Of a stretch of DNA of 64,000 bases, positions 5,714-26,244 are shown piece by piece. How positions within the stretch are numbered: the stretch's first letter is position 1; each line of letters opens with the position of its first letter. Source of the DNA: Candidatus Pacearchaeota archaeon (lineage in GTDB: Archaea > Nanobdellota > Nanobdellia > Pacearchaeales > GW2011-AR1); the NCBI GenBank assembly GCA_018221285.1, contig JAAOYJ010000024.1, positions 13,156 to 77,155 on the forward strand. Direction: 5' to 3'. The position numbers were made by a program, and so were the translations under genes. A model generated the notes under the pieces. It had not been told where the DNA came from and searched no databases. It saw only the letters and a program-made list of their open reading frames with translations.

Positions 5714-6247
5714 ATGAAGTATGATAAAAATCAGGCGCATTATGTTGTTATTACTTGTATTCCTGTTAATGAAGAAGGAAAATATTTGATTGCAAAGAGA
5801 GCTGAGAAGGAGAAGGCATTTCCTGGTTTGTGGACTGTTCCAGGAGGGAAGTTGGAGGTTTTGGATTATGCGCTGAGAGAGAAGGACACGTCTGCTCATT
5901 GGTATAATGTTTTTGAGGATGTTGCAAAGAAAGAGATGAAAGAAGAAGTTGGATTGGAAGTTAAAAATATTGAATATGTCACTAGTATGGTTTATATTCG
6001 GAGTGATGGTGTTCCTGCGGTGATTGTGAGTTTGTGGGCAAAAGTTGTTGGAGATTCCACTAAAGTGAAACTTTGTCATGCTTTAACAGATTACAAATGG
6101 GTTACACTTGAAGAAGCAAAGAATTATGAATTGATTGATGGGATTTATGAAGAGCTTGAGATTTTGGATAGGAAATTGAAGGATGGGGGGAAGATGGGAG
6201 AGTGGAAGAAGAGTGATGGAGATGAAGGGTTGTTTGGGAGTTATTAA
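5714..6247 (+). CDS. NUDIX hydrolase
   Basis: Nudix-box-like GGKLE...AKKEMKEEVGLEV. Confidence 0.7.
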   Translation: MKYDKNQAHYVVITCIPVNEEGKYLIAKRAEKEKAFPGLWTVPGGKLEVLDYALREKDTSAHWYNVFEDVAKKEMKEEVGLEVKNIEYVTSMVYIRSDGVPAVIVSLWAKVVGDSTKVKLCHALTDYKWVTLEEAKNYELIDGIYEELEILDRKLKDGGKMGEWKKSDGDEGLFGSY

Positions 6248-18790: not shown

Positions 18791-18808
18791 TTTTCATTTA
18801 ATCACATC
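18784..18808. terminator. 9-bp perfect hairpin GATGTGATT-TTCATTT-AATCACATC spanning two convergent stop codons
   Basis: The stem contains the TGA of the + gene (18788-18790) and the TGA of mcm (complement of 18802-18804). Confidence 0.45.
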
Positions 18809-20829
18809 CTCTGGATGTATCCTCTTTTGGGTTTGAAAATGTCTCCTGAGGCTTGTAGTTTATTTATTGCGTCCTCGATTTCATCTTTGCTTAATTTGTC
18901 TTCGAGCTCTTTCTCAACCTCTTCCATTGGAATTAGCTTTCCAAGTCTGCTCTCTAGATGGGTAAGGGTGTCCCGAACTGTGAAGATTTTACTTCTCTGG
19001 GAGGATGGAATTCCTGTAGAAATCCTGTCGATATCAATGGTTTTTGATTCGTAATCATAGCCTACTTGCATAAGATAATATTTCATTATTTCTATTGCTC
19101 TTTTTGCGTCGTCCTTAGTTACTTTTTCACTTAGTCTTAATTTTGCTGAGGCCTCTGATAGTCTGACTAGTGCCTGCAACTGTCTGGCAGAAATCGGAAT
19201 CGGCCTCATAGCACTCTCTGACGCAACAGGTTTATTTCTCAAGTCCACATAAAATTTCTTAATTTCTGAGACTGCATTGTTTGTTAATTCTGGCCTAATC
19301 CTTTGCTTGGCATATGCAACATATTTTCTAAAAATCTCTCTTGGGATTAACATATCTTCTCCTGCGCTTTGATGTTCTTGTAATACATGGCTCGCGATTT
19401 TTTCATCCTTATCTCTGCTTGGGATATCTCTTAGAGTGAAAATTACATCGAATCTGTTGATTAATGTTGGAGGCAGATCAATCTGTTGAGCAATTGATTG
19501 GTATGGGTCGAATCTCCCGAATTTTGGATTTGCTGCAGCTAGGACAGATGTCTCGCTTCTCAAAGTTGCTTGTACATTTGCCTTGGAGATTGTAACTGTC
19601 TGTTGCTCCATTGCTTCATGCATAGCACTTCTATCTGTAGGGTCCATTTTTTCTAATTCATCTATGCAAACCAATCCTTTGTTCGCCAGAACCATCGCAC
19701 CTGCTTCCAAGCTCCAACCCCTCAAATATTCATCTCTCACTACTGTTGCTGTTAGCCCTGCTCCTGAAGTAGATTTACCGACGACATAACGTCCTTTTGG
19801 AGAAATGGTTGCCATAAAATTTAGAGTAACACTTTTTGCCACTCCCGGATCTCCTATTAATAAAATGTGGATGTCTCCTCTGCTCTTCTGCCCGTCTGCA
19901 TGTGTTTTTTGTACGCCACTAAATAATTGAAGTACTAAAGATTTTTTGATTTCCTGATATCCCCAGACACTTGGAGTAATACTTTTTGCTAGTTTGTCAA
20001 ATATTTTTGGGTCTTCAGAAAGTTCGAGGATTTGTCTTTCATCTTCTTCGCTTATGTCAAGTTCTTCAAAAGTTTCTTCAAGAGGGATAAGGTTGTTTGC
20101 CTCAATTGCCAGTTCGAATCTTGTTGAGAGCCCCCCTGTTTTTAGAGGAACAGGAACTTCTTTCAGAACTCCGATAGCTTTTACTCTACTTCCAGGGGTT
20201 GTCTTTTCTTCCATCTTTGGTTCAACCAAATCTTCTTTTACAAACACGTGAATTCTTTTTGGTTGCTCTCCTCCTGAAAGAGATTCGGGGGATTCTTCAA
20301 TAACTAGTCTTTGAGTATCAACCATTTCCTTGCTTATTAATTTGAATCCTCCTCTTCTTCCGCAAGAACATCTTGAAGGTTCTCTGAATTTTTTCTCTAT
20401 TTGTAAAACTGAAATAACTGTTCCACAACTTGGGCACTCGAACTTTGCATTTACTACTTGGGGTCTAACATCAGATGCTTGCCGGATGATTCCTTCGAGA
20501 ATAATTAATTCATTTAAGTGTTTTGAACGAATATTTCTTACCTTTATTTCTTGGCTTTTTGGAAGATTGAATAATCTTACCCTGACATTGATGACCAATC
20601 CTGATTCTTCGATTGCTTGTTCAATTAGTCTTAGAGTGTCTTCTGGATTTGAGAGAATTTCATCTGAGAGTTTGTTTGAGAACTCTGTGAGTTTCATGAA
20701 ATCAATATAAATTACATTATTGCCTTTACGTAGAGAGTCTCCAAGTTCCTTTTTGTGGAAATCGAAGAAGTTCTTTGACTCTATTATTAGTTCCTCGTTT
20801 TTTGGCCTGCTAGGATTATCACCTTCCAT
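18802..20829 (-). CDS. mcm: MCM replicative helicase
   Basis: Zn finger CPSCG...CSCG, Walker A ILLIGDPGVAKS, Walker B CIDELEKM, arginine-finger region SRFD-like NRFDVIF. Confidence 0.95.
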   Translation of the reverse strand: MEGDNPSRPKNEELIIESKNFFDFHKKELGDSLRKGNNVIYIDFMKLTEFSNKLSDEILSNPEDTLRLIEQAIEESGLVINVRVRLFNLPKSQEIKVRNIRSKHLNELIILEGIIRQASDVRPQVVNAKFECPSCGTVISVLQIEKKFREPSRCSCGRRGGFKLISKEMVDTQRLVIEESPESLSGGEQPKRIHVFVKEDLVEPKMEEKTTPGSRVKAIGVLKEVPVPLKTGGLSTRFELAIEANNLIPLEETFEELDISEEDERQILELSEDPKIFDKLAKSITPSVWGYQEIKKSLVLQLFSGVQKTHADGQKSRGDIHILLIGDPGVAKSVTLNFMATISPKGRYVVGKSTSGAGLTATVVRDEYLRGWSLEAGAMVLANKGLVCIDELEKMDPTDRSAMHEAMEQQTVTISKANVQATLRSETSVLAAANPKFGRFDPYQSIAQQIDLPPTLINRFDVIFTLRDIPSRDKDEKIASHVLQEHQSAGEDMLIPREIFRKYVAYAKQRIRPELTNNAVSEIKKFYVDLRNKPVASESAMRPIPISARQLQALVRLSEASAKLRLSEKVTKDDAKRAIEIMKYYLMQVGYDYESKTIDIDRISTGIPSSQRSKIFTVRDTLTHLESRLGKLIPMEEVEKELEDKLSKDEIEDAINKLQASGDIFKPKRGYIQRM

Positions 20830-20946
20830 AGTAGGGAAGAGTTGCTATCCTTTTTATAAATTTATATAGATTATTGAGTGGTTTAAGAAAAGATGTGTTG
20901 GAAAATGTATAGATAATTTTAAAAGTTCACCACTATTCTCAAATAA

Positions 20947-22830
20947 ATGCCTAATCGATCTGAATTCCTGCGACTTTGTGAAGAGAATGAGTATTCTAAG
21001 AGAGAGATTGATCTTTTTAGAAAGGCTCTTGATTATTCAAAGGAGCAGTTTAAAGCTGAAAAGAGGTTATCTGGCGAGCTAGTGATGAGACATAATATTG
21101 AAATTGGAAAAATTTTGGTTAAGTCGAAACTTTTCCCAGAAGTTGTTGTGGCAGGTATTCTTTATGGGGGAGAGGGGAAAGTTCTTCCAACTGAACTTCA
21201 GAAAGAATTTGGAAAGGAGATTTCTGATTTGGTTTATGGCCAATCACAGTTAAAAGTTATTAAGTCAAAGAATGAAAATGTTGAAGCAGAGACTTTGAGG
21301 AAAATTTTGTTAGTCACTATCAAAGATGTTCGGATTATTTTTGTGAAACTCGCAGATAAGTTGGATAATCTTAAGACGATGAGGGTGTTACCTGAAAAAG
21401 AGCAGAGGAAAATTGCAGAAGAAGTTCTTGAAGTTTATGCTCCACTTGCAAATCGTTTTGGATTGGAGTATATTCGGCGTAGATTAGAAGAGAGGGCATT
21501 TAAGATTCTTAATCTTCGTAGATATAATGAGATTGTAAATTTTTTGAAAGATTCAAAAGAGAATAGGCAGAAGTTTGTTAAGGATTTTATTGGAGAGGTT
21601 AGTAAGAAGTTGGGGGGGAAAGCTAAGATAGTTGGAATTAAGGGAAGAGAGAAGCACATCTATAGTATTTATAAGAAACTTCACAGGGAGAGTTTACATA
21701 ATCAAAGAGATCATTTTGCGATTAGGATTATTGCTAAGTCTGTTGATGATTGTTATAAGGCTCTTGGGATTTTGCATGAAAATTATGAAGGGGGAAGGCT
21801 GAAAGATTATATTGCTTCTCCGAAACCAAATGGTTACCAGTCATTGCATACTACTTTGAATATTGTAGGAAAATATGTGGAAGTTCAAATTAGGACGCAA
21901 GAGATGGAAGAAGTTGCAGAGGAAGGTGTTGCTTCGCATTGGTCTTATAAGAAGTTGAAATCAGATGAGAATTTTGAAAAGAAAACTGCGTGGTTAAGGT
22001 CTGTTTTGGATTTGCAGGCTAATGAGAAGGATAAGGAATTTTTGAAGACAGTTAAGTTGAATGTTTTTGGAGATAAGATTTATTGTTATACTCCTCAGGG
22101 AAAGGCGATTGATTTGCCAAAAGGGTCGACGATTCTTGATTTTGCTTATCAGATTCATCAAGAGGTTGGGAATCGTGCTGTTGGAGGGAGGATTGATGGG
22201 ATTTATGCGTCGCTCAGGAAAGAGTTGAAAAACGGCGAGGTTGTTGAGATAATGACTAATAAGAACCAGAGACCGAGGAGAGACTGGGTTAAGTTTGTTG
22301 TATCTGCCCGTGCAAGAAGTATAATTAGAAAAGAAGTTAAGAGGTATGAAAAGATTCCTGTGGCTAAACATTATTCAATTAAGGAATCAGAGAAAGAGAA
22401 GTTTGATGATTTGACTTATTCTTTAGAGTTTCCTAATCATAAACTTTCTTTGGCAAAGTGCTGCTCTCCGATTCCAAAGAATGAAATTGTGGGAGTGATT
22501 AAATCTCATAGAAAGATTTCAGTTCATGTTAAGGATTGCAAGAGGATAAAGGAAGCGGTAGATAGAATTATTCCTGTTTTCTGGAAAGAGACTTTTAATC
22601 GTCCGATAAAGATTATTGTTGAGGCGTCTGATAGGTCTGGGATACTGGCAGATATGCTTAATACGATTTCTCGAGGAGGTTTTGTTGTGAAAGAAGCAAA
22701 TGCAAAGTTGATTAGTAATGGGGCCTCTGAATGTTCTTTTGTAATTGTTCCTCAGAAGCTTGAGCATATAGTTAATTTGATAAAAAGGATAAAGAAAGTT
22801 CGGGGTGTGCAGAAGATTTGGTTTGAATAA
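20947..22830 (+). CDS. long RelA/SpoT homolog (HD-like, synthetase, TGS, ACT); hydrolase motif degenerate
   Basis: Synthetase motifs GREKHIYSIYKKL, DHFAIRII, KDYIASPKPNGYQSLHT, VEVQIRTQEM, ASHWSYK. TGS region IYCYTPQGKAIDLPKGSTILDFAYQIH. ACT-like C-terminus. The position of the hydrolase LLHDxxEDT motif reads ILYGGEGKV. Confidence 0.85.
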   Translation: MPNRSEFLRLCEENEYSKREIDLFRKALDYSKEQFKAEKRLSGELVMRHNIEIGKILVKSKLFPEVVVAGILYGGEGKVLPTELQKEFGKEISDLVYGQSQLKVIKSKNENVEAETLRKILLVTIKDVRIIFVKLADKLDNLKTMRVLPEKEQRKIAEEVLEVYAPLANRFGLEYIRRRLEERAFKILNLRRYNEIVNFLKDSKENRQKFVKDFIGEVSKKLGGKAKIVGIKGREKHIYSIYKKLHRESLHNQRDHFAIRIIAKSVDDCYKALGILHENYEGGRLKDYIASPKPNGYQSLHTTLNIVGKYVEVQIRTQEMEEVAEEGVASHWSYKKLKSDENFEKKTAWLRSVLDLQANEKDKEFLKTVKLNVFGDKIYCYTPQGKAIDLPKGSTILDFAYQIHQEVGNRAVGGRIDGIYASLRKELKNGEVVEIMTNKNQRPRRDWVKFVVSARARSIIRKEVKRYEKIPVAKHYSIKESEKEKFDDLTYSLEFPNHKLSLAKCCSPIPKNEIVGVIKSHRKISVHVKDCKRIKEAVDRIIPVFWKETFNRPIKIIVEASDRSGILADMLNTISRGGFVVKEANAKLISNGASECSFVIVPQKLEHIVNLIKRIKKVRGVQKIWFE

Positions 22831-22836
22831 AAATAG

Positions 22837-22950
22837 GTTCGCTCCGCTCACGATGGGTGGCTTCGAATCCTCCTTCGGCAGGATTCTTCGCTGAGAGGTT
22901 GTTAATGAGTTAGCTTCGCATAGTGTGTTGAGAAACTATTATTGTTATTA
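22837..22950 (+). repeat. mosaic intergenic repeat, copy E
   Basis: GGCTTCGAATCCT-loop-AGGATTCTTCGC hairpin + TGAGAGGTTGTTAATGAGTTAGCTTCGCATAGTGTGTTGAGAAACTA. Confidence 0.8.
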
Positions 22951-23004: not shown

Positions 23005-24018
23005 ATGAATATTGAAATAATTGATATATTAGTTGCGAGATTAAAAGATGCCCCAGTTGAAAAGCATCTGTTAGAAGCCCACCAGGATTTTTTGTTAAGA
23101 ACAGGATTCAGAAAAGTTGGTGAAGAAGGTATCTCACAAGATTCTGGCGTACTTGCAATAAATAGGAGTATGTATGCAGTTCCAGTTGTAACTGATGTTG
23201 TGTTTCTTCCCTTTAGTCGTTTAGAAGAAACGAGCGAAGGATATTGTTTTGGTCCTGAAGATACTAATGCGATTCCAGTAAATATGTGGTACGGAAAATG
23301 GCAAGGAAATTTAGTAAGTAGAGTGGATCTTTTTGTTCCGAAGCATATGGATCCTTTTCTTTATATTAGTGAATCTCTCCCAGATTATACAGAAAGAGAC
23401 AGGAGTGAACTAGAAAGATTTGAAGTTAGAAAATTTATTAGAAGTAGGGAAAATATAGAAGCAGTATTCCCTAGTTTGTGTGAAAAACTTGAAAGAGTTA
23501 CTCAACCATTAGAAATGCAGGTTTCTGAATTTGACGAAATCAAAAGTAATATTTCAGATAACCTTGATCTTTTAGGAATTGATCATAAAATTATTTATAG
23601 GTCAAAAACAGTAGAAAGTGTTTTTAGTAAAGCTGAAAGGCGACTAGCTACCATAAATTCATATAACGATTTTACTTATGGAGATTTGGGGTGGTTAGTA
23701 GATAAGGATATACCTTCTCTTGAAGAGGTGGCTCTATATAGTCCAGACATAAATGGCATGAGAGTTATGGTTAAAAGTGCAGAAGAATGTTATAAGGCAC
23801 TTGATGTTTTATCTCAAGAATATAAAGTTGAGAGTGTTGAAAGAGATGATGGAACCCTATTTTATCGAATTTATGATTGTATTCCATTTCCAAAAAGAAC
23901 AGGGTTCCAGATGATAGGTTATTTTTCTGAGATTAATGGAAAAAGAATTCACTTTGAAATCCAATCCGAAAAGATGCAATCAAGGGCTGCTAATGACGGA
24001 TATCATCTGAGAGTTTAA
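23005..24018 (+). CDS. divergent RelA/SpoT-synthetase-like nucleotidyltransferase with an unknown N-terminal domain
   Basis: The C-terminal third parallels the neighbour's synthetase domain. YRSKTVESVFSKAERRL matches GREKHIYSIYKKL. DINGMRVMVKSAEECYKALDVL matches DHFAIRIIAKSVDDCYKALGIL. PFPKRTGFQMIGY matches SPKPNGYQSLHT. IHFEIQSEKMQ matches VEVQIRTQEME. ATG 23005 preferred because the track start lies inside repeat E. Confidence 0.5.
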   Translation: MNIEIIDILVARLKDAPVEKHLLEAHQDFLLRTGFRKVGEEGISQDSGVLAINRSMYAVPVVTDVVFLPFSRLEETSEGYCFGPEDTNAIPVNMWYGKWQGNLVSRVDLFVPKHMDPFLYISESLPDYTERDRSELERFEVRKFIRSRENIEAVFPSLCEKLERVTQPLEMQVSEFDEIKSNISDNLDLLGIDHKIIYRSKTVESVFSKAERRLATINSYNDFTYGDLGWLVDKDIPSLEEVALYSPDINGMRVMVKSAEECYKALDVLSQEYKVESVERDDGTLFYRIYDCIPFPKRTGFQMIGYFSEINGKRIHFEIQSEKMQSRAANDGYHLRV

Positions 24019-24101: not shown

Positions 24102-24674
<573 letters not shown>

Positions 24675-24854: not shown

Positions 24855-25163
24855 ATGAAAGAAAGAGATTTTTATTTTCCAGCGATATTAAAAAATTACA
24901 TTGAATTTCTTGGATTTGATAAAAGGGAATTTAGTCTATTAGCTACCCCTTGGCATGGATTTGCAGATGAGGTTGTAGAAAAGTATGGGTTTAAATTAGA
25001 AGGAGTTGTTTTAGAAGGGGAAGGGTGTAAAACGTATACGTTAAGAGGATTAAAACAAGAATCTGGTCTTGTATTAATTGGAAAGGATTTTGGAGACGAG
25101 GTTACTTACTCTCAAGGATTGTGTAATGTGTTGAGGCATAAAGTTGTTAGCCTTCCTTCCTAA
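24855..25163 (+). CDS. hypothetical protein (102 aa)
   Basis: ORF track. The 3' end overlaps the convergent gene by 17 nt. Confidence 0.4.
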   Translation: MKERDFYFPAILKNYIEFLGFDKREFSLLATPWHGFADEVVEKYGFKLEGVVLEGEGCKTYTLRGLKQESGLVLIGKDFGDEVTYSQGLCNVLRHKVVSLPS

Positions 25164-26244
25164 ATCTATCTCCAACATATCCAATCAATTCACTGCCGCT
25201 TATTCGAATTGTTGAAGGTCCAGCTCTTATATAGAATTCTTCATCTTGAGGAGTTGGTCGCAAGAAGACTTGCTCGTTGCTTCTTCTACAATCTATTTTT
25301 AATACGGTTTTTCCTTCAATTAAAACTTGCTCAAAACTGATGAAGGATAAGTATTTCTTTCCAATTTTGGCTTTTATGAGATTCATTAGATGAAGGTTGA
25401 ATCTATCGTTGTTTTCGAATCTGTCTCTTTCTATTCCGATGATTTTGCCGTTGTTTGCCACACCAATTAGTAATGTTCCGCCATTTGAATTTAGAAGTGC
25501 GGTCAATGTTTTTAGGACAGAGTATTCAAGTCTTCTGTCAAGTTCATTTGTATGGAGATTCACCCTCAATGTTGATTTGAATTCTGTTTTTGCGTTTTCA
25601 CCTTTTTTGATTATCTCAAGGATTTCCTCAGGAGAATCTGTTTTTGTGAATAGTTTTGGATTTGTTCTTTTGAATTTATCTACGATTCTATTAAACACCT
25701 TTACTTTTCTTTTCATATAGATGTAACCGAAGACTGAAGCTATTGCTGCGCCGATTATTACATAAGTCATGTTCATCATGGTGAATGCGTAAATACCTGT
25801 ATGTAATTCATGACCAAGTATTAGTTTAAGGTAGAATTTTGCTAGTTCGATTAGGAACCCGATTGCTACAGAAAAGTTGAAGGAGAATAGGATTATTAGG
25901 AAATAGTTTTTCTTTATTTGGTTGCTTGAATATAAGATTAGTAAGATCATGAATCCTATCATGCCTGTTGCGATTCCGAAGAAGATTGGGATTATCTTTC
26001 CTCCTATCTCTCCAAGGAAGAAGGTCAGTATTACGAATACTAGAAGAAGCCATTCAAATTCTCGAGGAATTTTCAATTTGTATTTTTTGAATATCTGTGG
26101 AACAAACATTAAGATGAGTAGGAATATGTTTGTTGACATAATGTGCCAGAACTGAGAGTAGATTGCGTTGAGGATCGATAAAATCAAGATTAGTTTTATT
26201 GCGAGAGAGAGGTAATCTCCTATAGATGATGATTTTTTAGGCAT
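25147..26244 (-). CDS. polytopic membrane protein with a C-terminal AlbA_2 (Schlafen/AAA_4-type) domain
   Basis: About 5-6 N-terminal TM helices, then ENAKTEFKSTLRVNLHT...VLKTLTALLNSNGGTLLIGVANNGKIIGIE, typical of the AlbA_2 putative DNA-binding domain. Confidence 0.6.
   Translation of the reverse strand: MPKKSSSIGDYLSLAIKLILILSILNAIYSQFWHIMSTNIFLLILMFVPQIFKKYKLKIPREFEWLLLVFVILTFFLGEIGGKIIPIFFGIATGMIGFMILLILYSSNQIKKNYFLIILFSFNFSVAIGFLIELAKFYLKLILGHELHTGIYAFTMMNMTYVIIGAAIASVFGYIYMKRKVKVFNRIVDKFKRTNPKLFTKTDSPEEILEIIKKGENAKTEFKSTLRVNLHTNELDRRLEYSVLKTLTALLNSNGGTLLIGVANNGKIIGIERDRFENNDRFNLHLMNLIKAKIGKKYLSFISFEQVLIEGKTVLKIDCRRSNEQVFLRPTPQDEEFYIRAGPSTIRISGSELIGYVGDRFRKEG

What the first reader, a model, noticed from the sequence alone, without database searches (positions are those of the whole stretch)
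20947..22830. Full-length RelA/SpoT homolog with a degenerate hydrolase motif in an archaeal informational-gene context
The 627-aa protein has the long-RSH domain order HD-like, synthetase, TGS, ACT. Its synthetase motifs are intact: GREKHIYSIYKKL, DHFAIRII, GYQSLHT, EVQIRT. Where hydrolase-active Rel/SpoT proteins carry LLHDxxEDT, this protein reads ILYGGEGKV, so the catalytic His-Asp and Glu-Asp pairs are missing, as in monofunctional RelA. Published surveys of the RSH superfamily report long RSHs as uncommon in archaea. Here the gene sits divergently next to mcm and upstream of tbp, which is not an obviously foreign island. No recognisable dedicated (p)ppGpp hydrolase is present in the window. 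The Nudix gene at 5714 is the only generic candidate.
Basis: partly seen in the sequence, partly recalled or inferred. Interest (0 to 1): 0.6.

Follow-up and report, generated by a model that had tools for sequence, protein, structure and literature searches.

The report
Hydrolase-dead alarmone synthetase in DPANN archaeon
A tiny DPANN archaeon carries a resident, full-length relative of the bacterial stress enzymes Rel/RelA/SpoT that has kept the site that makes the alarm nucleotide (p)ppGpp but lost the site that destroys it; no partner hydrolase was found in its genome, which makes it a concrete test case for alarmone signalling in archaea.

Summary
ORF 20947-22830 (+) encodes a 627-aa long RSH (pseudo-HD, SYNTH, TGS, zinc finger/RIS, ACT). 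Every synthetase catalytic residue is intact. The hydrolase HD and ED dyads are gone, with a 2-residue deletion.

It is not a one-off. It belongs to a large DPANN clade ("A", at least 118 clusters) with an invariant synthetase site and a clade-wide dead hydrolase site. A related DPANN clade ("B") keeps the hydrolase. Both clades group apart from the sampled bacteria and share a helical linker half the bacterial length.

The gene is resident. mcm-RSH-tbp synteny recurs in independent assemblies, and the gene tree follows host families.

In another family (f20), 62 of 73 clade-A genomes also encode a separate ~400-aa hydrolase with an intact RSH-type HD domain. That partner, small SAHs and clade B were not found in this 82%-complete genome, and the ~400-aa partner was not found in 10 related clade-A genomes. 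Eight Nudix genes are the only generic candidates.

RelA/SpoT in DPANN was reported in 2021. This scan has flagged the same clade on several other genomes. I rate it a new variant of a known kind, of moderate interest. Enzyme activity is inferred, not shown.

The parts
20830..20946 (.). Divergent mcm/RSH intergenic region with A/T-rich TATA-like boxes (about 20851-20870 and 20914-20926, the latter roughly 25 nt upstream of the RSH ATG). Presumed archaeal promoters.
   Evidence: Sequence read. The promoter function is inferred, not tested.
20947..22830 (+). Long RSH gene (627 aa), clade A: predicted monofunctional (p)ppGpp synthetase.
   Evidence: AF2 model pLDDT 86.2, pTM 0.81. Foldseek returns only Rel/RelA/SpoT structures.
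21025..21465 (+). Pseudo-hydrolase (HD_4) domain, residues 27-173. Folded but catalytically degenerate.
   Evidence: Pfam HD_4 111.6 bits. pLDDT 81-97. Residue table.
21157..21183 (+). ILYGGEGKV (residues 71-79): the position of LLHDxxEDT. HD becomes YG, with a 2-residue deletion and no ED pair.
21346..21378 (+). KLADKLDNLKT (residues 134-144): the position of KLADRLHNMRT. Arg becomes Lys (invariant in clade A) and His becomes Asp. Asn is kept.
21643..21954 (+). Synthetase (RelA_SpoT) domain, residues 233-336. R234, K236, S240, D255, R260, K293, Y297, H301, E312, Q314 and R316 are all intact. The motif is RLKD (RxKD type).
22078..22257 (+). TGS domain, residues 378-437, with the invariant His404 (equivalent of E. 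coli RelA H432).
22258..22458 (+). Shortened helical linker between TGS and the zinc finger: 68 aa against 126-150 aa in bacterial enzymes.
22459..22602 (+). Zinc-finger/RIS domain with invariant C505, C506, H527 and C531.
   Evidence: The precomputed Pfam entry PF28438 is RelA_RIS.
22603..22818 (+). ACT/RRM domain, residues 553-624.
23005..24018 (+). Strain-specific orphan gene (337 aa from the ATG; 358 aa from the TTG at 22942) with a very divergent C-terminal RelA_SpoT (SAS-like) domain, inserted between the RSH and tbp.
   Evidence: Pfam 34 bits. Absent from the syntenic loci L016 and L005. It is its own only hit among 5.8 billion proteins. Three remote relatives exist.
18802..20829 (-). 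Archaeal MCM helicase gene: a conserved syntenic neighbour.
24102..24674 (-). TATA-binding protein gene: a conserved syntenic neighbour.
5714..6247 (+). Nudix hydrolase (177 aa), one of 8 in the genome. A generic candidate for non-RSH alarmone degradation.

Best explanation
The gene encodes a resident archaeal long RSH that works as a synthetase-only enzyme of [hS] type. The SYNTH domain transfers pyrophosphate from ATP to the 3'-OH of GDP/GTP to make (p)ppGpp. The N-terminal HD domain has lost metal binding and catalysis and survives as a structural or allosteric module, as in E. coli RelA. The C-terminal TGS, short helical, zinc-finger and ACT domains most likely couple activity to uncharged tRNA and/or the ribosome. 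The enzyme belongs to a DPANN-specific clade A that shares ancestry with a hydrolase-competent DPANN clade B. It has been inherited vertically in the window's lineage. Alarmone removal must be done in trans. In family f20 a separate ~400-aa protein with an intact RSH-type HD domain usually co-occurs. No such partner was found in the window's lineage, so a non-RSH hydrolase (for example one of the 8 Nudix proteins) or dilution is inferred. Shown: domain architecture, residue conservation, phylogeny, synteny and distribution. Inferred: the catalytic activities, the tRNA/ribosome trigger and the route of degradation.
For: The best solved relatives are Rel, RelA and SpoT. The synthetase residues R234, K236, D255, R260, K293, Y297, H301, E312 and Q314 are invariant in 118 of 118 clade-A sequences, and S240 and R316 in 117 of 118. 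The guanine-stacking Tyr and the PKxNGY(Q/R)SxHT loop are as in (p)ppGpp-making Rel enzymes. On the hydrolase side, the HD-motif Asp is Gly in 93 of 118 clade-A sequences against Asp in 115 of 118 in clade B. The second metal-binding Asp is N/T/D/V in clade A against Asp in 116 of 118 in clade B. The ED pair is lost, with a 2-residue deletion. The pseudo-HD domain is still constrained: mean pairwise identity is 0.51, K138 is invariant, and model pLDDT is 81-97. The TGS His and the C-C-H-C zinc-finger residues are invariant. Residency is supported by mcm-RSH-tbp synteny in the 75%-identical JGI locus L016 and RSH followed by a tbp-sized ORF in the same-genus contig L005. It is also supported by even composition and by core clade A (100/100) splitting by host family into f20 versus f1+f23 (100/99). 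The archaeal long RSHs separate from 7-9 bacterial references at 96/86 and 100/97. They also share a halved TGS-to-zinc-finger linker that was not used in the trees. On partners: the ~400-aa protein with an intact HD domain is in 66 of 81 f20 genomes, which is 62 of the 73 that carry clade A. It has no match in the own genome or in 10 clade-A genomes of f1/f23. The own genome has no other HD_4 protein, no Ppx/GppA, and 8 Nudix genes.
Against: There is no biochemical or expression evidence. [quoted passage not shown] A synthetase-only state without a hydrolase is generally toxic in bacteria, so the lack of a partner here is uncomfortable for the model. The genome is only 82% complete, so a hydrolase could lie in the missing part. 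The helical linker that contacts tRNA in RelA-ribosome complexes is half the bacterial length, and archaeal ribosomes differ, so the bacterial activation mechanism may not carry over. Only 7-9 bacterial sequences were in the trees, so the separation from bacteria is provisional.
Confidence: 0.72

Rival explanations
1. The enzyme is still bifunctional: the HD pocket keeps hydrolase activity through displaced or alternative residues.
For: His49, Asp137 and Asn141 of the window protein are retained. The domain is well folded in the model. No other RSH-type hydrolase was found in the genome.
Against: The HD-motif Asp, a metal ligand that defines the HD superfamily, is absent in the window protein and in about 115 of 118 clade members. 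The ED catalytic pair is absent, with a 2-residue deletion. Asp137 is not conserved in the clade (N/T/D/V), and His73 is Tyr here. Clade B and the stand-alone hydrolases in the same phylum keep all of these residues, which shows what a constrained active site looks like in these organisms.
Confidence: 0.05
2. The synthetase makes a different product: (p)ppApp, or pyrophosphorylated tRNA as some toxSAS enzymes do. It would act as a toxin or effector rather than a stringent factor.
For: No hydrolase partner was found in this lineage. A second, orphan SAS-like gene is inserted next door. DPANN archaea live attached to hosts.
Against: The acceptor-binding loop (PKPNGYQSLHT, with invariant Tyr and His) and the RxKD motif are those of GDP/GTP-using Rel enzymes. 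The full regulatory C-terminus is conserved. There is no toxin-antitoxin-like gene pairing. The gene lies in a conserved housekeeping locus. The only PADLOC match is a generic SYNTH-domain hit.
Confidence: 0.08
3. The protein is a catalytically silent pseudoenzyme, or a gene decaying after loss of its hydrolase partner. This would explain its patchy distribution in family f1.
For: The gene is patchy in the window's order: about 18 full-length genes in 401 genomes. The pseudo-HD is further eroded in genus g73.
Against: Synthetase, TGS and zinc-finger motifs are intact in all 13 f1 members examined, including those with the most eroded HD. The reading frames are full length without stops.
Confidence: 0.08
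4. The gene is a recent bacterial transfer, or a binning or assembly artefact.
For: PMC8407392 infers a bacterial origin for DPANN RelA/SpoT. Genome contamination is estimated at 5.8%.
Against: The gene lies inside a 113-kb contig, between archaeal mcm and tbp. The same synteny recurs in independent assemblies. GC content is even. The best bacterial identity is 30-40%, against 47-79% to more than 100 DPANN clusters. The tree is congruent with host families. Any bacterial origin would be ancient.
Confidence: 0.03

Closest known systems
E. coli RelA (monofunctional long RSH, [hS]; PDB 5iqr, 5kpv)
   Same: Same five-part architecture. Intact synthetase combined with a degenerate but retained HD domain. 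Conserved TGS His and zinc-finger Cys/His residues. Top Foldseek hit.
   Different: It is not a member of the RelA subfamily. The NF008124 score is 356 against a cut-off of 728. The motif is RxKD (RLKD), not ExDD (EFDD). In the trees it falls in a separate, archaeal clade, so the hydrolase was lost independently. The helical linker is about 80 residues shorter. No SpoT-like paralogue was found in the same genome.
Bifunctional Rel (B. subtilis Rel 6yxa; T. thermophilus Rel 6s2u; S. equisimilis Rel 1vj7)
   Same: Highest sequence similarity (E 4e-106 to 6yxa). RxKD motif. The catalytic half superposes on 6s2u with TM 0.76 (normalised to the target) and rmsd 3.8 A.
   Different: The hydrolase catalytic residues are missing and the linker is shorter.
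DPANN clade-B long RSH (for example P0122, 'RelA/SpoT family protein [Nanoarchaeota archaeon]')
   Same: Same phylum, same length of about 630-640 aa, same halved helical linker. In the trees it groups with clade A apart from the sampled bacteria.
   Different: Clade B keeps the HP / LLHDxxED / LADRLHNMRT motifs and is 36-38% identical to the window protein.
Acinetobacter baumannii SpoT (PDB 7qpr)
   Same: Best full-length structural match to the compact predicted conformation (TM 0.54).
   Different: Opposite specialisation: according to the earlier scan note e1-2516987, 7qpr is an [Hs] enzyme. Only 21-23% identical.

Membership tests
Long RSH (RelA/SpoT family, TIGR00691) | Domain order HD - SYNTH - TGS - helical - zinc finger/RIS - ACT | tested here: met
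   Pfam HD_4, RelA_SpoT, TGS and ACT_4 in order. RelA_RIS (PF28438) is precomputed. C-C-H-C residues are present.
Long RSH (RelA/SpoT family, TIGR00691) | Score above the curated family cut-off | tested here: met
   530.4 bits against 499.2.
Long RSH (RelA/SpoT family, TIGR00691) | Synthetase catalytic residues (R241, K243, D264, R269, K297, Y308, H312, E323, Q325 in Rel_Seq numbering, recalled from memory) | tested here: met
   All are present, and all are invariant in 118 clade-A sequences.
Long RSH (RelA/SpoT family, TIGR00691) | (p)ppGpp synthesis activity | not testable with these tools
   Needs an enzyme assay.
Bifunctional Rel/SpoT | Hydrolase metal ligands and catalytic dyads (H..HD..ED..D..N) | tested here: not met
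   HD becomes YG, ED is absent, and there is a 2-residue deletion. The SpoT equivalog NF008303 scores 398 against a cut-off of 947.
Proteobacterial RelA subfamily | Equivalog score | tested here: not met
   NF008124 scores 356 against a cut-off of 728.
Proteobacterial RelA subfamily | ExDD charge-reversal motif of monofunctional RelA (established knowledge: Sajish et al. 2007, recalled from memory) | tested here: not met
   RLKD here. The Lys is present in 114 of 118 clade-A sequences. E. coli RelA reads EFDD.
Proteobacterial RelA subfamily | Phylogenetic placement with RelA | tested here: not met
   Clade A is a separate group at 100/100. E. coli RelA falls with the bacterial sequences.
toxSAS / CapRel-type toxin or defence synthetases | Single SYNTH domain, toxin-antitoxin-like bicistronic context, match to a defence model | tested here: not met
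   Multidomain protein in a housekeeping locus. The only PADLOC match is a generic SYNTH-domain hit to PDC-S33.

The most novel reading that the evidence does not exclude
The window's lineage (the f1/f23 subclade of clade A) maintains under selection an active, tRNA/ribosome-coupled (p)ppGpp synthetase with no RSH-type hydrolase anywhere in the genome. This configuration is regarded as non-viable in bacteria. The alarmone would then be removed by a non-homologous enzyme (for example one of the unusually many Nudix proteins), or be used differently in these host-attached cells. The phylum as a whole would have independently re-created the bacterial division of labour: a hydrolase-dead synthetase plus a stand-alone hydrolase in family f20.
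Probability: 0.35. Interest if true: 0.7.

Novelty: new variant of a known kind. Interest (0 to 1): 0.5.

Why it matters
[quoted passage not shown] The RSH census that shaped the field found no long RSHs in archaea (PMC3153485). This gene is a well-preserved member of a large archaeal clade whose synthetase site is invariant. It therefore gives a concrete protein for testing whether any archaeon makes alarmones.

The comparative picture adds two testable evolutionary points. First, the hydrolase site was lost independently of proteobacterial RelA. Second, the compensation differs by lineage: a separate ~400-aa hydrolase in one family, and none detectable in the window's family. The halved helical linker shared by all DPANN long RSHs may reflect adaptation to the archaeal ribosome or tRNA.

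Against this, the presence of RelA/SpoT genes in DPANN was already published in 2021. This scan has also flagged the same clade repeatedly.

Tried and rejected
- **Orphan as recent duplicate.** I asked whether the downstream SAS-like ORF is a conserved partner or a recent duplicate of the RSH. It is neither. It is absent from the syntenic loci of close relatives, is only 31% identical over 78 aa, and has no close homologue among 5.8 billion proteins.
- **Generic HD protein as the missing hydrolase.** I tested the genome's only generic HD protein (188 aa, contig C22). Its family occurs in only 11 of 81 f20 genomes, so I rejected it as a consistent partner.
- **Interim conclusion corrected.** I first concluded from the Pfam HD_4 survey that most clade-A genomes lack any RSH-type hydrolase. 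That was wrong for f20. A ~400-aa hydrolase that Pfam detects only weakly is present in 66 of 81 genomes.
- **C-terminal extension as a dead synthetase.** I tested whether the C-terminal extension of that ~400-aa protein is a degenerate synthetase domain. hhalign aligns only the HD part.
- **Clade A nested in clade B.** This is the maximum-likelihood topology, but the AU test does not reject B-like monophyly (p = 0.435).
- **Insertion boundaries.** A tRNA-like stretch after the RSH stop codon is not a tRNA, there is no Rfam hit, and the flanking repeats are no better than chance.
- **Repeat-protein hits.** The large hits in the representative search for the orphan are spurious matches to Listeria-Bacteroides repeat proteins.
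- **Limited bacterial sampling.** The single genome-contig scan returned only 6 bacterial loci.
Full report
**Observation.** The ORF at 20947-22830 (+) is real and encodes 627 aa. Pfam finds HD_4 (27-173), RelA_SpoT (233-336), TGS (378-437) and ACT_4 (553-624) in the order of a long RSH. NCBIfam TIGR00691 scores 530 bits, above its cut-off of 499. The RelA and SpoT equivalog models score far below theirs: 356 against 728, and 398 against 947. The closest solved relatives are B. subtilis Rel (6yxa, E 4e-106), a mycobacterial Rel and E. coli RelA. In the 6yxa alignment 'flHDvvEDt' faces 'ilYG--gEGk'. The HD dyad is YG, two residues are deleted and the ED pair is missing. The upstream His (RHN) and 'LADKLDN' remain.

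**Organism and context.**
- The window is part of an 863-kb, 43-contig assembly that is 82% complete with 5.8% contamination. It belongs to a small-genome archaeon.
- Sources name the relatives Nanoarchaeota, Woesearchaeota or Pacearchaeota archaeon.
- The flanking genes are archaeal: MCM with the archaeal winged helix, TBP, a Schlafen/AlbA_2 protein and ATP-dependent DNA ligase. GC content is even across the window.
- A 75%-identical homologue on an independent JGI contig shows the order MCM - RSH - TBP - SLFN/AlbA_2 - DNA ligase (L016). The same-genus genome has the RSH followed by a TBP-sized ORF.
- The gene is therefore resident and the contig is not a chimera.

**A clade-wide property.**
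- The 5.8-billion-protein search returned at least 120 clusters of about 630 aa at 47-79% identity. All carry the same domains and all come from DPANN-type sources.
- Nearly all of them read LLHG or LLYG where active enzymes read LLHD, and none has the ED pair.
- Across 118 clade-A sequences, the synthetase residues corresponding to Rel_Seq R241, K243, D264, R269, K297, Y308, H312, E323 and Q325 (numbering from memory) are invariant at 118 of 118, and S247 and R327 at 117 of 118.
- In the same set the HD-motif Asp is Gly in 93 sequences. The second metal-binding Asp is N/T/D/V. 'DR' is always 'xK', and the His of 'LHN' is mostly Asp.
- The pseudo-HD domain is still constrained. Mean pairwise identity is 0.51 and Lys138 is invariant. 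The AlphaFold model (pLDDT 86.2, pTM 0.81) predicts it as an ordered helical domain with pLDDT 81-97.
- Foldseek returns only Rel, RelA and SpoT structures.

**A second archaeal clade and the phylogeny.**
- Within the same order, other genomes carry a long RSH only 36-38% identical to the window protein, with all hydrolase motifs intact: HP, LLHDVLED, LADRLHNMRT. This clade B is also large, with at least 120 clusters.
- In an IQ-TREE analysis of the HD-SYNTH-TGS region, clade A (100/100), clade B (100/99) and nine bacterial references (96/86) are three groups meeting at one node. Clade A has a long stem.
- With family-labelled archaeal sampling, all full-length DPANN RSHs separate from the bacteria (100/97). 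Core clade A (100/100) is preceded by partly degenerate forms (G753, G431). It splits cleanly into an f20 subclade and an f1+f23 subclade (100/99) that contains the window gene.
- Clade A nests within the B-like sequences in the best tree, but B-like monophyly is not rejected (p-AU 0.435).
- A character not used for the trees supports a common origin. Both DPANN clades have a 66-68-aa segment between TGS and the zinc finger where bacterial enzymes have 126-150 aa. All other domains match in length.
- The RxKD motif (RLKD) is that of bifunctional Rel, not the ExDD of RelA. The loss of the hydrolase is therefore independent of proteobacterial RelA.
- Caveat: only 7-9 bacterial sequences could be included.

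**Distribution.**
- In 401 genomes of the window's order the gene is patchy. There are about 18 full-length genes, four ~460-aa truncated forms and a few small HD-only proteins. No genome has more than one match.
- In 400 high-quality genomes of the phylum, 183 have an RSH-related match. Clade A is near-universal in family f20 (40 of 42), and B-like genes fill most other families.
- Together with the family-congruent tree, this favours vertical inheritance with frequent loss in the window's family.
- One f20 genome (G556) has both an A and an intact B copy. The B copy groups with other families, so it is a secondary acquisition or a binning artefact.

**Where is the hydrolase?**
- The own assembly has no second HD_4 protein, no Ppx/GppA, one generic HD protein and eight Nudix genes, one of them at 5714-6247.
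- The generic HD family is not a consistent partner: it is present in 11 of 81 f20 genomes.
- The Pfam survey of f20 suggested that few clade-A genomes have another HD_4 protein. Weak hits in 370-430-aa ORFs led to a family whose N-terminal half carries all hydrolase motifs (HP-x-N, HD-x-x-E[ED], KLADR-x-HN), followed by a conserved ~190-aa extension.
- This family is present in 66 of 81 f20 genomes. By my count, that is 62 of the 73 that carry clade A. The two clade-A genomes of genus g190 that lack it (G443, G827) have small SAHs with intact motifs instead.
- hhalign aligns only its HD part to the long RSH, so the extension is not a recognisable dead synthetase.
- In f20 the dead-HD synthetase is thus usually accompanied by a separate hydrolase.
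- A 14-sequence profile of this family finds nothing in the window's genome, even at E up to 1. It finds nothing in 10 other clade-A genomes of the f1/f23 subclade (76-97% complete), apart from one weak 179-aa hit.
- The synthetase, TGS and zinc-finger motifs are intact in all 13 f1 members examined. The window's lineage therefore appears to maintain a synthetase-only enzyme without an RSH-type hydrolase.

**Mechanism.**
- Shown: architecture, intact synthetase site, dead hydrolase site, conserved regulatory domains, residency and distribution.
- Inferred: the protein makes (p)ppGpp from ATP and GDP/GTP. The acceptor loop PKPNGYQSLHT, with its invariant Tyr and His, matches GDP/GTP-using enzymes.
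- Inferred: the pseudo-HD acts structurally or allosterically, as in RelA.
- Inferred: the TGS His (equivalent of E. coli RelA H432) and the zinc finger couple activity to uncharged tRNA and/or the ribosome. The halved linker leaves the geometry uncertain.
- Inferred: degradation is in trans, by an unidentified enzyme in this lineage.

**Prior knowledge.**
- Atkinson et al. 2011 found no long RSHs in archaea.
- A 2021 DPANN comparative study reported RelA/SpoT in 41.7% of Woesearchaeota, 21.3% of Pacearchaeota and 19% of Nanoarchaeota, and inferred a bacterial origin. The passages I read do not mention the dead hydrolase.
- This scan has already flagged the same clade on several other genomes (e1-3172505, e1-3364790, e1-3182183 and others). 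It has also flagged the extended hydrolase family (e1-1441598) and the orphan next door (e1-2975372).
- The gene itself is therefore another member of a clade already noticed.

**Limits.**
- No biochemical or expression data are available.
- The assembly is incomplete.
- Bacterial sampling in the trees is thin.
- Related genomes are not independent, so I attach no statistics to the co-occurrence counts.

Noticed in passing
window 23005-24018 (+) (TTG alternative start at 22942): Orphan 337-aa protein with a very divergent C-terminal RelA_SpoT domain (Pfam 34 bits). It keeps R-x-K..S, D..R, PK..G-F-Q and E-x-Q motifs. It is inserted between the RSH and tbp only in this genome, and is its own only hit among 5.8 billion proteins. 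Three remote relatives (P0243, P0245, P0248; about 25% identity over nearly full length) share the layout of an N-terminal extension plus SYNTH. It is listed as a separate finding of this scan (e1-2975372).
   Followed up: partly
L103-L116 (family f20 genomes, e.g. G823:C14:11075-12226): A ~370-430-aa protein family with an intact RSH-type HD hydrolase domain plus a conserved ~190-aa C-terminal extension of unknown fold. It is present in 66 of 81 f20 genomes and largely co-distributed with the hydrolase-dead clade-A RSH. It was not found in the window's genome or in 10 f1/f23 relatives.
   Followed up: yes
G211:C20:702-1934, G084:C1:254628-255809 (L074, L075; genus g58 of the window's family): Truncated ~460-aa RSHs (degenerate HD, SYNTH and TGS; no zinc finger or ACT) with intact synthetase motifs. 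They sit on a very long branch that groups with the bacterial references rather than with clade A. This may be a separate origin or a long-branch artefact.
   Followed up: partly
G556:C49 (L052) and G556:C13 (L051): One f20 genome (95% complete, 1% contamination) carries both a hydrolase-dead clade-A RSH and a fully intact clade-B RSH, like a RelA/SpoT pair. The B copy groups with RSHs of other families, so it is a transfer or a binning artefact.
   Followed up: partly
own genome G000 (C42, C43, C13, C9): There are eight Nudix-domain genes in an 863-kb genome, four of them on contig C42. They are candidates for non-RSH alarmone or nucleotide housekeeping hydrolysis.
   Followed up: no
G431:C1:559535-561391 (L092) and G753:C2:45-1874 (L050): These are intermediate forms. 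G753 has the 2-residue deletion and 'LIHS' but keeps 'LADKLHNLRT'. G431 reads 'LLHGICLIDK' without the deletion. Both branch at the base of clade A, which suggests stepwise or repeated loss of the hydrolase site.
   Followed up: partly
window 25147-26244 (-); also L016 7537-8643 and L017 3653-4216: A Schlafen/AlbA_2-domain gene lies near the clade-A RSH in three different loci, with a membrane-spanning N-terminal half in the window copy. It may simply be common in these genomes.
   Followed up: no
window 22851-22890: A GC-rich hairpin (GAATCCT-ccttcggc-AGGATTC) with a T-arm-like GCTTCGAATCC lies just after the RSH stop codon. ARAGORN and Rfam find nothing. It is probably a terminator-like structure.
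   Followed up: yes
clade B alignment (P0122-P0241): At the RxKD/ExDD position clade B is mixed (Lys in 54 sequences, Asp in 44 of 118), although its hydrolase motifs are intact. The charge-reversal rule derived from bacteria may not hold in these archaeal enzymes.
   Followed up: no
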